Source: a virus. Taken from it: DNA of 64,000 bases. The stretch covers positions 64,001-128,000 of the IMG/VR virus record IMGVR_UViG_3300020048_000026; one strand, written 5' to 3'. Positions within the stretch are counted from its first letter, which is position 1. Each line of letters opens with the position of its first letter. The translations under genes were made by a program, and so were the position numbers. The notes beneath the pieces were generated by a model that worked only from the letters and a program-made list of their open reading frames with translations, was not told where the DNA came from and searched no databases. Below are positions 6,968-54,911 of the stretch, piece after piece.

Positions 6968-7294
6968 ATGAAAATACAAAAATTTAATGAATCATCTGAA
7001 GAAAGTCACAAAAGTTGGAGTAAAGAAAGATTAACTCAACATATAAATGAGAGAGATTATTTACAAGAAGTTTTAAAAAAATATTTATTTTGGAAATCTG
7101 GTGCAGATCCTTCTGAAACTGCATATGATGTTGATAATTATTTTTTAGATTATAAAAACAAGTTCTGTATAAGTTATGAAGATGGTGATCGTGAAAATTT
7201 GGTTGTTCGTGTTCAAGAAAAAGATTTTGATGAATTAATAATGTTTTTGAATAATCCTGAAATGATGATGAATTCAAAAAAGTATAATTTATGA
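6968..7294 (+). CDS. Putative virion-internal protein (MKIQKFNE ... KKYNL)
   Basis: Shared N- and C-terminal motifs; TAATATATA upstream. Confidence 0.65.
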   Translation: MKIQKFNESSEESHKSWSKERLTQHINERDYLQEVLKKYLFWKSGADPSETAYDVDNYFLDYKNKFCISYEDGDRENLVVRVQEKDFDELIMFLNNPEMMMNSKKYNL

Positions 7295-7626
7295 AATATA
7301 TAAAATTATTTGAGGGTCGTAAACCATTTTCTGAGAAGTATAAAGGAGGAGATTTGCTTTTAGTTGATTTTAAGGCTATTGTATATAATAAAACTTGGTA
7401 TAAGAAAGATGGTTCTCCTCCGCTTGTTTTTCCTAATAATGTAGTAGAAGTTATAGGTTACACAGATTATATAAAAAGTTATTTATGTCGTTCAGTTATC
7501 AACGGTATAAATATTAATGTTCAATCAAATAAAATTATTCAAAAAATTGAAAGAGATAGTCCATTTTTACAACAAATGCTAGATGATATTGCATTTCATA
7601 AAGAAGTCAGTAAATATAATTTATAA
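7291..7626 (+). CDS. Putative virion-internal protein (MKYIKLFE ... SKYNL)
   Basis: Shared terminal motifs; ATGA overlap with the previous gene. Confidence 0.65.
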   Translation: MKYIKLFEGRKPFSEKYKGGDLLLVDFKAIVYNKTWYKKDGSPPLVFPNNVVEVIGYTDYIKSYLCRSVINGININVQSNKIIQKIERDSPFLQQMLDDIAFHKEVSKYNL

Positions 7627-8592
7627 TTTTATTTTACCTTTATTTTCAGTTATTACTTTCAATTCATAATTTTTTATTATTTCATCGTAAACTTGGTCTG
7701 TTGTTGGATGACATTTATAAATAAGAGGGTCTGGATCAACATCTTGACCTATTGTAGAATGATTTTCTAAACAGAATGAAACAGGAGCCATGATATTATG
7801 TTTTCCATTATGTGCGATATTATATTTCATATCTGATGCGCAAAATAAATTACAACTACCTAAGACATAAGAATATTTATAATCTTGTGAACCGTTTCTA
7901 TAAGGTGCTCTAAAATGTGGATTTATAGAACTTCCTAATTGAACTATATGTGTATCTGTTGTACCTGCAAAATGTAGAATTCCTGAGTCCATAGTTACAA
8001 TCATATTTGCTTTATCTAAGATATGCCATGTTTGATGAATATCTATTTGATTAATTAAGTTTAATCCATTTTTTATATCTAATTCATAAACAGGTTTTTG
8101 TATATGGTAAGTACCATATTCTTTTGAATCTTTTCCTATAGCAACAACTGGTATATTTATATCATTTAATCTATTTACCAATTCTTGCCATCTTTCTTTT
8201 TCCCAAGTTCTTGATGTCCAGGTTTTTACTGGATGTATAACTATATAGTTATCTGGTAGATTTATTGGAATGAAAGGGTCTGGATAGAATTCTATTTGCA
8301 TTTCATCGGGTAGTAGTTGAAATCCGGAATTTAATGAGTGTAATTGTCTAATATCTACTCTAGTGTGTATTAGTTTATCTGTTTGAAATGTTTCAATTAA
8401 GGTATCTCCTTCTTCTATATTATAGTTATCTGAGAGAGTTATATATGAAAAATTTTTAAATAATTCAGGTTGGTAGGTAAACACATGAATATTTTTGTTA
8501 TATATTTTATTAAGATGTTTAATAGTAGGAATTGCGCATAAGGTATCACCGAGGCTTCTTGAACCTATGAGAACCAATATTTTATTAGTCAT
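7621..8592 (-). CDS. Glycosyltransferase family 9 (heptosyltransferase-like)
   Basis: SLGDTL..P, IVIHP...W.SR.W...W, TMDSGILHFAG. Confidence 0.85.
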   Translation of the reverse strand: MTNKILVLIGSRSLGDTLCAIPTIKHLNKIYNKNIHVFTYQPELFKNFSYITLSDNYNIEEGDTLIETFQTDKLIHTRVDIRQLHSLNSGFQLLPDEMQIEFYPDPFIPINLPDNYIVIHPVKTWTSRTWEKERWQELVNRLNDINIPVVAIGKDSKEYGTYHIQKPVYELDIKNGLNLINQIDIHQTWHILDKANMIVTMDSGILHFAGTTDTHIVQLGSSINPHFRAPYRNGSQDYKYSYVLGSCNLFCASDMKYNIAHNGKHNIMAPVSFCLENHSTIGQDVDPDPLIYKCHPTTDQVYDEIIKNYELKVITENKGKIKL

Positions 8593-8647
8593 AATTAAAC
8601 AAATATTTTAATTTAAACTATATCAAATTACAAATAAAGTTTATAAA

Positions 8648-53754: not shown

Positions 53755-54470
53755 TCCTCTCTATTATCCTTAATAATATTCAATTTATTATTATATTTGA
53801 TAATAGTATGATGATAAATATTTTTAATTAAATATTTATTATAATACTCTTTGATTTTTGTTAAATCTCCTTTTATATTTGCTCCACCTTTCATAAAAAA
53901 TTTTATCTCAATTTTTCCTAAATTTTGCCATGCACCAACTTTTTTATCGTCAAAGTTTTTTGGATCTTCATTAAATATTAATTTATAAAATTGTTTAAAT
54001 TCCCATTCTTTATAACTACCGAAATATATTTTTAAATAATTTTTATCTAAATTGTAGAAATCAATTGTTTTTGATGCACCAAATTCATCTTTGAGATTAA
54101 ATCTTTCCTTAAATTTTATCCATGCTATAACATCTCTAGCTTCTGGTCTATTCCAAGGTGTTGAACAAGAATCATCACTTGATAAATAAAACGTTTTTAT
54201 AAATTCAAATATTTTATCATCTACATTGAATCCAGAAAAATATTTTTTTAATCTATTATCAATTTCCTCATAATCATTCAGATTTCTTAAATCTTCTTTT
54301 ATTCTTTCATCATATGTTATACCTAATGTATTATTCTTACTTATTAGACTATTTATTTTTTTCTGATGAAGTTCCCAATCACTTACATGACCAAATCCTT
54401 GTTGGTCTAAAAATTTTAGAATTTGTTTTAGATCTGCTTGATTTTTAATAGTGAGTCCACTTAAATTCAT
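53751..54470 (-). CDS. Hypothetical protein
   Basis: 239-aa ORF. Confidence 0.6.
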   Translation of the reverse strand: MNLSGLTIKNQADLKQILKFLDQQGFGHVSDWELHQKKINSLISKNNTLGITYDERIKEDLRNLNDYEEIDNRLKKYFSGFNVDDKIFEFIKTFYLSSDDSCSTPWNRPEARDVIAWIKFKERFNLKDEFGASKTIDFYNLDKNYLKIYFGSYKEWEFKQFYKLIFNEDPKNFDDKKVGAWQNLGKIEIKFFMKGGANIKGDLTKIKEYYNKYLIKNIYHHTIIKYNNKLNIIKDNRED

Positions 54471-54521
54471 AAAATTAGATTTTGTTTTTTATATATATAA
54501 AAAAACAAAATACATATTTTA

Positions 54522-54911
54522 ATGCTAAAAACTTATACTAGTTTTATTACAAAGATTAATGAAGGTTCAGATAGTTCTCCAACTATTATTTATTGGGATC
54601 ATCAACTTGTTGATGTTCTGGATAAAGAGTGGACAAACATAACAGTTAAGATTCTCACACATTCTTCTAATATTTATACAATAGGGTTTAAAGCTGGAAA
54701 TGAAAAATATGATTATTATGGTGTTTTGTTTGATAGTAGTAGTAATAGTTTATTAGTACAAGATACTCATAATGTAGATTCTAAGTTTCAAAAAAAGTTA
54801 AATATAGAATTTTGGAAAAATGCTGTAGAATACTCTAAAAATATGGATTTTGATCCTAAATTTTTAGGTGATGTTTCTCATATAAGAGATGCTGAAAGAT
54901 ATAATATGTAA
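54522..54911 (+). CDS. Putative virion-internal protein (... AERYNM)
   Basis: MLKTYTSF...INE N-terminus and C-terminal motif. Confidence 0.6.
   Translation: MLKTYTSFITKINEGSDSSPTIIYWDHQLVDVLDKEWTNITVKILTHSSNIYTIGFKAGNEKYDYYGVLFDSSSNSLLVQDTHNVDSKFQKKLNIEFWKNAVEYSKNMDFDPKFLGDVSHIRDAERYNM

What the first reader, a model, noticed from the sequence alone, without database searches (positions are those of the whole stretch)
6968..54911. C-terminal (K/R)YN(L/M)-stop tag on ten unrelated proteins
Seen: ORFs at 6968, 7291, 12888, 13659, 13889, 15739, 21154, 24856, 46591 and 54522 end in SKKYNL, VSKYNL, AEKYNL, AKKYNL, AKKYNL, TQKYNL, AKKYNL, AERYNL, AKKYNL and AERYNM. Their bodies look unrelated (77-383 aa) and they lie on both strands. 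Synonymous and conservative changes (TAT/TAC, AAA/AAG/AGA) suggest selection on the peptide. Most also begin with an MKxIKxF(E/N)-type motif. Inference: this is a C-terminal docking or sorting signal for virion cargo (packaging, ejection or binding to a scaffold), or a degron.
Basis: partly seen in the sequence, partly recalled or inferred. Interest (0 to 1): 0.8.

Follow-up and report, generated by a model that had tools for sequence, protein, structure and literature searches.

The report
Two-ended peptide label on megaphage proteins
About one gene in eight of this uncultured giant bacterial virus makes a small, otherwise unrelated protein that ends in the same capped helix (Lys-Tyr-Asn-Leu) and usually starts with a leader like phage T4's capsid-loading signal. 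This looks like an unpublished address label, probably for loading proteins into the virus head, but what reads it is still unknown.

Summary
All ten ORFs end as stated. On the whole 154.9-kb contig, 24 of about 219 genes end in [KR]YN[LIM], against 0.02 expected. Internal copies of the motif occur only at the chance rate.

Selection acts on the peptide, not the DNA. The Asn codon is AAT or AAC (63:37) while the residue stays fixed, and 26% of tags lie at no coupled gene junction.

The label is portable. Among relatives, 342 distinct tagged proteins fall into 151 body clusters, including ankyrin, LRR, methyltransferase and zinc-finger bodies. A 330-kb relative carries 104 tagged genes out of 582.

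- AlphaFold puts the tag at the end of a C-terminal helix, and I read it as a Schellman-type cap.
- The N-terminal leader is predicted disordered.
- The bodies are acidic.
- Tagged arrays share the AATATATA promoter core that is conserved before the capsid gene.
- Each genome uses one "dialect" of the tag (YNL, FN[LI] or FG[LI]), which implies a single reader acting in trans.

My best reading (0.45) is a docking handle for head cargo that works together with the T4-like leader. No reader was found.

The scan had already reported this tag, on this genome and on two others. I found nothing about it in print.

The parts
6968..7294 (+). Tagged gene, 108 aa. Leader MKIQKFNE, end SKKYNL-TGA. Its stop overlaps the ATG of the next tagged gene.
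6939..6947 (+). AATATATAA promoter-like core, 29 nt before the first gene of this two-gene tagged array.
   Evidence: The same core is conserved upstream of the capsid gene in about 45 of 52 relatives.
7291..7626 (+). Tagged gene, 111 aa. Leader MKYIKLFE, end VSKYNL-TAA. It is followed by a convergent gene that shares the palindrome TTATAA, so no downstream gene could use the tag's DNA as a start region.
12888..13403 (-). Tagged gene, 171 aa. Leader-like MKVKKYDS, end AEKYNL-TAA.
13659..13892 (-). Tagged gene, 77 aa. Leader MKIKKFDN, end AKKYNL-TAA.
13889..14353 (-). Tagged gene, 154 aa. Leader MKHLKVFE, end AKKYNL-TGA, overlapping the next start codon.
15739..16584 (+). Tagged gene, 281 aa from a GTG start. 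Leader variant MITNFKIFEN. The body gives weak matches to a DnaJ-type CXXCXGXG zinc finger and to DMP19. End TQKYNL-TAA.
   Evidence: an orthologue in L104 has the same domains and the tag
21154..21543 (+). Tagged gene, 129 aa. Atypical start MVKINRFF, end AKKYNL-TGA.
24856..25170 (-). Tagged gene, 104 aa. Leader MKYIKLFE, end AERYNL-TAA. It lies next to a gene resembling a head-tail adaptor (24070-24822). In the AlphaFold2 model residues 1-9 are disordered, a helix spans 87-101, and YNL is coil.
25176..25184 (-). AATATATAA promoter-like core, 14 nt before the start of 24856-25170.
46591..47742 (+). Tagged gene, 383 aa. Leader MKYLSYFKEN, end AKKYNL-TAA. Nineteen orthologues (41-54% identity) all keep both ends. 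In the AlphaFold2 model (pLDDT 90.8) residues 1-10 are disordered, a helix spans 365-380, and YNL is coil.
46577..46585 (+). AATATATAA promoter-like core, 14 nt before the 383-aa tagged gene and just after a terminator-like hairpin.
54522..54911 (+). Tagged gene, 129 aa. It starts MLKTYTSFITKINE, which resembles the T4 CTS MKTYQEFIAE. End AERYNM-TAA. The next gene is convergent.
54486..54497 (+). TTTTTATATATA promoter-like element, 25 nt before the start of 54522-54911.
47742..49858 (+). Three genes (47742-48251, 48265-49002, 48992-49858) directly after the 383-aa tagged gene. They have leader-like starts (MIINFDEF, MIERFEKF, MIYRFKIFE) but no C-terminal tag.
23202..24053 (-). Leader-only gene, 283 aa. 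Starts MKHLKIFE and ends ...VKKYL, which may be a decayed tag.

Best explanation
The K-[Y/F]-N-[L/I]-COOH end is the C-terminal half of a portable, two-ended address label carried by late-expressed, mostly small and acidic accessory proteins of a clade of uncultured megaphages. These phages have T4-type heads and are related to the 634-735-kb 'huge phages'.

The N-terminal half is a disordered leader of 8-9 residues (MKYIKxFE, MITxFKxFE, MKTYQQFNE). It resembles the T4 capsid targeting sequence and ends in Glu, the residue after which gp21-type prohead proteases cut.

The C-terminal half is not a floppy tail. It is the capped end of a helix about 15 residues long: small or hydrophobic at -6, Lys at -4, an aromatic at -3, Asn or Gly at -2, and Leu or Ile at -1 with the free carboxylate.

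I propose that the leader brings the protein to the assembling prohead core, and that the capped helix end is a second handle. A single phage-encoded head component (scaffold, inner capsid wall or portal, or an adaptor) would read this handle and dock or retain the cargo, so that it stays in the head and is delivered with the DNA.

Shown: the label exists, it is under peptide-level selection, it is portable, it is coupled to the leader, and it changes in concert within each genome.

Inferred: late timing, cleavage after Glu, the cap geometry, the capsid as destination, and the existence of one reader.
For: 1. The tag is non-random and strictly terminal: 24 observed against 0.02 expected, with internal copies at the chance rate.

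2. Selection is at the peptide level.
- Asn is coded AAT or AAC at 63:37, against 87:13 in the background.
- Within families, 45% of pairs differ synonymously at this codon and 1% differ non-synonymously.
- All 19 orthologues of the 383-aa protein (41-54% identity) keep [KR][YF][NG][LIMV].
- In the 104-aa family the only invariant residues are M1, E8 and the tag Asn.

3. The tag is portable. The 342 unique tagged proteins fall into 151 body clusters. Bodies include ankyrin, LRR, Methyltransf_24, a DnaJ zinc finger with DMP19, and ExoX_C. One orthologue has swapped the leader variant.

4. Tag and leader go together: Fisher p = 1e-11 and 1e-47. Some leaders are T4-CTS-like, such as MKTYQQFNE. 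The T4 CTS is MKTYQEFIAE, is cut once, and is sufficient to load foreign proteins into the head (PMC8442874; PMC5694885).

5. The head module is T4-type: a Gp20 portal, a 790-aa protease-scaffold protein (PHROG 207 E = 8e-25; S80 28.8 bits) and a Gp23 capsid protein.

6. Two AlphaFold2 models agree. The leader is disordered (pLDDT below 50), and a C-terminal helix ends exactly at -4 with the last three residues as coil. Asn and Gly are the only residues seen at -2.

7. The AATATATA core is conserved upstream of the capsid gene in about 45 of 52 relatives. It also precedes the portal gene and the tagged arrays, but not the polymerase, topoisomerase or SbcC genes. Tagged genes lie within 10 kb of the capsid gene on this contig and in eight related loci.

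8. Each genome has one dialect: 22 of 22 YNL here, 92 of 102 FN[LIV] in a 330-kb relative, and 8 of 9 FG[LI] in L052. The distribution across 20 contigs is bimodal. Dispersed, unrelated genes changing together points to one reader acting in trans that touches positions -3 to -1.
Against: - No reader was identified, and no virion proteomics exist because no relative has been cultured.
- A capsid would have to hold a very large number of species: 104 tagged genes in 330 kb, which CheckV rates at about 46% of a genome.
- Tagged bodies are acidic (median pI 4.9 against 7.7 for untagged, p = 6e-17). T4 internal proteins are basic (PMC8442874).
- In T4 the CTS alone is sufficient for loading, so a second signal is not obviously needed.
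- The conserved positions -6, -4, -2 and -1 can all be explained by intrinsic helix capping.
- The leader does not fit the T4 (L/I)-x-E rule at P3.
- 'Late' timing rests only on a shared promoter core.
- The more distant complete relatives (640 and 676 kb) show no enrichment of the tag.
Confidence: 0.45

Rival explanations
1. C-terminal degron, or a handle for a destination other than the capsid. A host or phage protease, adaptor or compartment reads the capped helix end. This would time the removal of these proteins (for example unpackaged copies, or injected copies after use), or send them somewhere other than the head.
For: The pattern aromatic-x-aliphatic-COOH fits the general class of PDZ and C-degron ligands (established knowledge). 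The genome-specific dialects imply a reader but do not say which one. Acidic bodies fit cytoplasmic host-takeover or DNA-mimic proteins better than proteins packed alongside DNA.
Against: No PDZ_2 domain was found in 1.2 Mb of tag-bearing phage fragments, although these are incomplete genomes. The tag is a structured, capped helix end in the models, whereas unfoldase degrons are usually unstructured tails. The tight coupling to a CTS-like leader and the placement in head modules have no explanation under this reading.
Confidence: 0.2
2. An intrinsic structural cap with no reader. The motif is simply a very stable way to end a C-terminal helix: a Schellman cap with Asn or Gly at C', Leu or Ile packing on the -6 residue, and Lys pairing with the carboxylate. 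It would protect these small proteins from exoproteolysis, from the prohead protease, or from unfolding.
For: Both models end the helix at -4. Position -2 is only Asn or Gly. Position -6 is small or hydrophobic. Indels in the preceding helix come in units of 7 residues.
Against: Many sequences can cap a helix, yet Lys is present in 94% of tags and an aromatic in 100%. A neutral choice between Y and F should be mixed within a genome. Instead genomes are nearly pure Y or pure F, and this one also uses only Leu at -1. The cap is restricted to proteins that carry the leader.
Confidence: 0.15
3. One ancient, highly diverged family of paralogues. The conserved ends are inherited remnants rather than a transferable signal.
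For: Some tagged proteins do form families, with clusters of 77, 28 and 18 members. There are weak full-length BLAST links inside this genome. Arrays look like tandem duplications.
Against: There are 151 body clusters, with lengths from 59 to 456 aa. The bodies belong to unrelated Pfam folds: ankyrin, LRR, Rossmann-type methyltransferase and zinc finger. Within families the ends are much better conserved than the bodies. Homologues in a more distant phage keep the leader but lack the tag.
Confidence: 0.08
4. An anchor for proteins displayed on the outside of the capsid or tail. The capped helix would fix a repertoire of binding domains (ankyrin, LRR, small beta domains) to the virion surface, as Hoc-like decoration proteins do.
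For: Expression looks late and the genes lie near structural genes. Some bodies contain protein-binding repeat domains.
Against: A disordered, CTS-like leader ending in Glu is a feature of internal head proteins. Most bodies have no recognisable binding domain.
Confidence: 0.07
5. A nucleic-acid-level element. The conserved junction (tag codons, ATGA, leader codons) would be a translational-coupling or start region for the next gene, an embedded TATAAT promoter, or a recombination site for shuffling gene cassettes.
For: 70% of tags are 5 nt or less from the next start codon, and every TGA stop in a tagged gene sits in an ATGA overlap. The arrays vary between close relatives.
Against: 14% of tags are followed by a convergent gene and 12% by a spacer, yet they are equally conserved. 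Wobble positions vary freely while the residues stay fixed. Only 85 of 342 tags contain TATAAT. The motif is not enriched out of frame or between genes.
Confidence: 0.05

Closest known systems
Phage T4 capsid targeting sequence (CTS, MKTYQEFIAE) on internal proteins IPI-III and Alt
   Same: A short N-terminal peptide shared by otherwise unrelated proteins that ends in Glu. The head genes are T4-type, including a gp21-like protease. Some leaders here are near copies (MKTYQQFNE, MLKTYTSF). The loci are hypervariable arrays.
   Different: I know of no shared C-terminal tag on T4 CTS proteins. T4 has about four such proteins, and they are basic. Here there are tens to hundreds per genome, and they are acidic. 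Cleavage and packaging have not been tested.
Encapsulin cargo-loading peptides
   Same: A short C-terminal peptide placed on unrelated cargo proteins that docks them on the inner face of an HK97-fold shell. The T4 Gp23 family is also HK97-fold.
   Different: The consensus is different: encapsulin peptides are Gly- and Leu-rich and follow a flexible linker. Here the tag is the capped end of a helix and is paired with an N-terminal leader. No docking site is known.
C-terminal coat-binding ends of scaffolding proteins (P22 gp8 helix-turn-helix; herpesvirus scaffold and protease sharing one C-terminal tail)
   Same: A helical C-terminus acts as the handle that ties internal proteins to the capsid shell. 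In herpesviruses more than one protein shares the same tail.
   Different: Those tails belong to one or two scaffold proteins, not to a hundred unrelated accessory proteins. There is no sequence similarity.
C-terminal ligands of PDZ domains and C-degrons (DegS-activating YxF-COOH, ssrA LAA)
   Same: Recognition depends on the last few residues and the free carboxylate, with an aromatic-x-aliphatic pattern.
   Different: No PDZ protein was found in the phage fragments. The tag is predicted to be structured rather than extended.
Long propeptides of ejection proteins in phiKZ/SPN3US-type giant phages
   Same: Many proteins packaged in the head carry N-terminal propeptides that an S80/S77-type protease removes after Glu (PMC5694885).
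   Different: Those propeptides are 80-130 residues long and are not a common short label. No shared C-terminal motif has been described.

Membership tests
T4-type CTS-bearing internal head proteins | An N-terminal leader of about 10 residues similar to MKTYQEFIAE and ending in Glu | tested here: met
   The leader logo is M-K-Y-[IL]-K-x-F-E, with Glu at position 8 in 61% after cluster weighting. Variants MKTYQQFNE and MKTFIQFNE occur in a relative. The T4 sequence is taken from PMC8442874.
T4-type CTS-bearing internal head proteins | A gp21-family prohead protease encoded beside the portal and capsid genes | tested here: met
   A 790-aa ORF lies between the portal and Gp23 genes. It matches PHROG 207 (E = 8e-25) and Peptidase_S80 (28.8 bits, cut-off 23.4). 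Its Peptidase_S77 score of 25.4 bits is just under the cut-off of 27.
T4-type CTS-bearing internal head proteins | The leader is cleaved after Glu and the protein is present in mature heads | not testable with these tools
   There is no cultured relative and no proteome.
T4-type CTS-bearing internal head proteins | Highly basic proteins packed with the DNA | tested here: not met
   Tagged bodies have a median pI of 4.9-5.4, against 7.7 for untagged proteins.
Encapsulin-type C-terminal cargo-loading peptide | A short C-terminal peptide shared by unrelated cargo proteins | tested here: met
   151 body clusters and several unrelated Pfam folds carry the same end.
Encapsulin-type C-terminal cargo-loading peptide | A Gly/Leu-rich consensus after a flexible linker, with a documented binding pocket on the shell protein | tested here: not met
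   The consensus is [ATISV]-[NK]-K-[FY]-N-[LI], sitting at the end of a confidently predicted helix. Binding to the shell protein is not testable here.
PDZ-ligand / C-degron systems | A cognate PDZ or tail-specific protease reader encoded by the phage | tested here: inconclusive
   There was no PDZ_2 match in five tag-bearing fragments (1.2 Mb), while the control genomes all matched. The fragments cover 22-46% of their genomes, and a host-encoded reader is not excluded.
Single paralogous protein family | Detectable homology of the bodies | tested here: not met
   BLAST on the bodies alone gives 151 clusters, and different Pfam folds are present.

The most novel reading that the evidence does not exclude
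These megaphages use a genome-wide, two-part address code: a CTS-like leader plus a capped-helix C-terminal handle, read by one co-evolving head component. The code would load on the order of a hundred different small acidic effector proteins into the capsid for co-injection. That would be by far the largest virion-borne effector arsenal known. The tag would also give a sequence-only way to list the injected proteins of uncultured phages.
Probability: 0.3. Interest if true: 0.85.

Novelty: new variant of a known kind. Interest (0 to 1): 0.7.

Why it matters
If the label marks head cargo, the injected proteome of an uncultured group of the largest known phages could be read directly from sequence. 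That would amount to hundreds of candidate anti-defence or host-takeover proteins. The label would also supply a compact two-ended tag for loading foreign proteins into large capsids.

Whatever the destination, the label is a rare natural case of one short linear signal shared by 12-18% of a genome's genes.

I found no publication that mentions the motif.

Tried and rejected
- **Chance or composition: rejected.** The counts are far above expectation.
- **DNA- or RNA-level element: rejected as the main cause.** This covers an embedded TATAAT promoter, a translational-coupling region and a recombination site. The evidence against is codon variation, tags before convergent genes, and the frame analysis.
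- **Clasp between the two ends of one protein: not supported.** The leader is disordered in both models.
- **Phage-encoded PDZ reader: none found**.
- **Function of the 383-aa body: uninformative.**
  - No PDB match with E at or below 0.001.
  - Only weak matches to uncharacterised jumbo-phage proteins and one PA5oct 'structural protein' in BFVD.
  - No Pfam or PHROG family.
- **Homologue search for the 104-aa protein:** it returned only the protein itself. Relatives were then found through a DNA junction pattern.
- **Tag in distant relatives.**
  - It is not enriched in the complete 640-kb and 676-kb genomes.
  - In a 243-kb relative it is confined to one family.
- **Avoidance of the TAG stop codon by tagged genes:** not significant once ATGA overlaps are set aside.
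- **Dialect-correlated residues in the capsid, protease or portal proteins:** not possible. Every capsid-linked locus that carries tags is of the Y dialect, apart from the FG[LI] fragment L052, which holds only a partial capsid gene.
- **PHROG annotation of large genes that have the promoter motif:** mostly empty.
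Full report
**Context.** The window is bases 64001-128000 of a 154,853-bp IMG/VR viral contig. The contig has 26% G+C, and CheckV rates it at about 22% complete.

The contig carries a T4-type head module:
- a Gp20-family portal;
- a 150-aa gene;
- a 790-aa protein whose N-terminal part is a gp21/gp175-type prohead protease (PHROG 207 E = 8e-25; Peptidase_S80 28.8 bits, above its cut-off; S77 25.4 bits, just below);
- a 615-aa Gp23-family major capsid protein.

The nearest GenBank records by capsid protein are uncultured 'huge phages' of 634-735 kb (49-57% identity). 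Lak phages follow at 29%. IMG/VR relatives include complete contigs of 640 and 676 kb. No relative has been cultured.

**Checking the observation.** I called genes by a simple greedy selection of non-overlapping ORFs.
- On the whole contig, 24 genes end in [KR]YN[LIM] and 27 end in YN[LIM], out of about 219.
- Amino-acid composition predicts 0.023 such ends.
- Inside proteins the motif occurs 5 times against 5.2 expected, so it is special only at the very end.
- At the DNA level, the motif followed by a stop codon occurs 30 times, against 1.4 in Markov-shuffled genomes. Of these, 24 are true gene ends.

**Peptide or nucleic acid?** Using a DNA pattern for the junction 'tag-stop/start-leader', I fetched 80 loci (710 kb) from related viral contigs. 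In them, 450 of 1360 genes end in [FY]N[LI]. Several results point to selection on the peptide.
- I set aside the instances the pattern had selected for. In the rest, Tyr, Phe and Lys codons follow background usage, while Asn is AAT or AAC at 63:37 (background 87:13).
- Within families, 45% of pairs differ synonymously at the Asn codon and 1% non-synonymously. Flanking codons differ non-synonymously in 50-78% of pairs. This set was chosen by the tag itself, so only the synonymous rate is informative.
- Two tests that did not select on the tag agree. The 19 database orthologues of the 383-aa protein (41-54% identity) all keep [KR][YF][NG][LIMV]. In the 104-aa family the only invariant residues are M1, E8 and the tag Asn.
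- The preference for an A-ending last codon is explained by ATGA overlaps: every tagged gene with a TGA stop has one.
- 70% of tags abut the next start codon, but 14% face a convergent gene and 12% a spacer, and these are just as conserved.
- Only a quarter of tags contain TATAAT.

A promoter, a coupling element or a recombination site is therefore not the main explanation.

**Portability.** With the ends trimmed off, the 342 unique tagged proteins form 151 BLAST clusters. The largest have 77, 28 and 18 members, and lengths run from 59 to 456 aa. Most bodies have no Pfam family. Those that do are unrelated to one another: ankyrin repeats, LRR, Methyltransf_24, a DnaJ-type zinc finger with a weak DMP19 match, and ExoX_C. 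One helicase-intein ORF ending in DFGL was a false positive of my loose pattern.

A 330-kb relative that CheckV rates at 46% complete has 104 tagged genes out of 582. So 'unrelated' is right in the main, although some tagged genes are paralogues.

**The other end.** Tag and N-terminal leader are strongly linked (p = 1e-11 on this contig; p = 1e-47 on the 330-kb relative). Most apparent 'tag-only' genes carry leader variants such as MITxFKxFE, MKIEKFNE or MKTYQQFNE. Leaders without tags also exist, including four in this window.

In a 243-kb relative with a 56%-identical capsid protein, the leader sits on about 20 proteins but KYNL is found on only one family. Homologues of tagged bodies there keep the leader and lack the tag. 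The leader therefore has the wider distribution, and the tag is an addition that expanded in one subclade.

The T4 capsid targeting sequence is MKTYQEFIAE. It is cut once, and it is sufficient to load foreign proteins into heads (PMC8442874; PMC5694885).

**Anatomy of the tag.** The cluster-weighted logo is [NDS]-[ATISV]-[NK]-K-[FY]-N-[LI]-COOH. Lys at -4 (94%) and the residue at -6 were not part of my selection pattern.

Two AlphaFold2 models, of the 383-aa protein (pLDDT 90.8) and the 104-aa protein (pLDDT 73), agree on three points:
- the leader (residues 1-9 or 1-10) has pLDDT below 50;
- a C-terminal helix of 15-16 residues is confidently predicted and ends exactly at -4;
- the last three residues are coil.

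Position -2 is only ever Asn or Gly. These are the two residues that readily adopt the left-handed conformation at the C' position of a Schellman helix cap, in which the C'' residue packs on C3; this is established knowledge of helix capping. Here C'' is Leu or Ile at -1 and C3 is the residue at -6. Within one family the helix varies by exactly seven residues while the cap stays in place.

I infer that the tag is a capped helix end presenting Lys, an aromatic and the carboxylate. I could not inspect coordinates, so the geometry remains an inference.

**Timing and neighbourhood.** An AATATATA core lies upstream of the capsid gene in about 45 of 52 relatives, down to 53% capsid identity. On this contig the same core, usually after a run of T, lies 5-30 nt before the portal gene and 56 nt before the capsid gene, and it also precedes other large genes and the first genes of tagged arrays. 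It does not precede the polymerase, topoisomerase or SbcC genes.

An extended form of the element occurs 65 times, against 18 in shuffled sequence. It is 3-5 times enriched before tagged arrays in two genomes.

On this contig a tagged gene sits divergently beside the portal gene. In seven close relatives and in L052, tagged genes lie within 10 kb of the capsid gene. In the window, 24856-25170 lies next to a gene resembling a head-tail adaptor. This supports late co-expression with head genes but does not prove it.

**Dialects.** This genome uses K-Y-N-L in 22 of 22 strict tags. The 330-kb relative uses K-F-N-[LIV] in 92 of 102. One fragment uses K-F-G-[LI] in 8 of 9. Across 20 contigs the fraction of Tyr is bimodal, near 0 or near 1, with two intermediates. 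Orthologues follow the dialect of their own genome.

A concerted change in dozens of dispersed, unrelated genes is what one expects if a single reader acting in trans contacts positions -3 to -1. It argues against a purely intrinsic cap.

**Points against the capsid-cargo reading.**
- Tagged bodies are acidic: median pI 4.9 against 7.7 in the 330-kb relative (p = 6e-17), and 5.4 against 7.7 here. T4 internal proteins are basic.
- The number of tagged species per genome is very large.
- The leader's P3 residue does not follow the T4 (L/I)-x-E rule.
- No reader was found. There was no PDZ_2 in 1.2 Mb of fragments. Fold searches for the 383-aa body gave nothing interpretable.

**Verdict.** I rate a head-cargo docking or retention handle working with a CTS-like leader at 0.45. 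The rivals, in order, are a degron or other destination, an intrinsic cap, external display, a relic of one family, and a nucleic-acid element.

The same tag was reported earlier by this scan, on this genome (e1-5790476) and on two other genomes (e1-5360028, e1-5403083). My tests agree with those notes and add five things: the cap reading, the dialects, the acidity, the codon and junction tests, and the conserved capsid-gene promoter. Full-text searches found no paper that mentions the motif.

Noticed in passing
window 3271-3330, 11020-11074, 18120-18172, 19456-19500, 27940-27994, 28270-28323, 42750-42802, 60250-60303, 63863-63910 (approximate gene ends): Many untagged small genes end in a basic motif of the type R-K-x-K-L-x-K-[IL], for example ...QRKEKLQKIIKK, ...FERIKKLNKLNENM, ...QIRKEKLKKIELNG. 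This is a second, different C-terminal helix motif. It does not co-occur with KYNL. The scan has already noted it (e1-5790518, e1-5360029).
   Followed up: no
window 7621-7626; genome 5379-5384, 17884-17889, 146791-146796: Convergent gene pairs overlap by exactly six bases on the palindrome TTATAA, so both genes end in Leu(TTA)-TAA on opposite strands. Four of the six tagged genes that face a convergent gene do this.
   Followed up: partly
L005-L073, 25-65 nt upstream of the capsid gene (for example L041:9910-9975); genome 23000-23095: A conserved two-part element, (A)TGGAAAAAAATGAC-TTTTT-N4-6-AATATATA(A/T), precedes the capsid gene across relatives with 53-88% capsid identity. In the closest relatives a hairpin (AAAGAC...GTCTT) lies between it and the start codon. 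It is probably the late promoter of this phage clade.
   Followed up: partly
genome 34340-34450 (minus strand), outside the window: An open frame of only 36 aa ends in ...ELEIAEKYNL-stop. It may be a remnant or a very short member of the tagged class.
   Followed up: no
G005 (L078) 85225-86270 versus genome 43156-45090: Between two conserved leader-only genes, this genome has three tagged genes where a close relative (capsid 86% identical) has one untagged gene. The arrays therefore behave as hypervariable cassette sites, like the internal-protein loci of T-even phages.
   Followed up: partly
window 16666-18027 and 60580-63870: A 453-aa ORF covers only the C-terminal part of a family-B DNA polymerase, so the polymerase gene may be split or interrupted. 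Separately, a single 1096-aa ORF encodes a fused type IIA topoisomerase (GyrB-like, Toprim and GyrA-like parts), unlike the split T4 genes.
   Followed up: no
window 23202-24053 (minus strand); G005 119354-119716: Leader-bearing proteins end in ...VKKYL and ...KGKKYNVI. These look like tags damaged by a one-residue deletion or extension.
   Followed up: no
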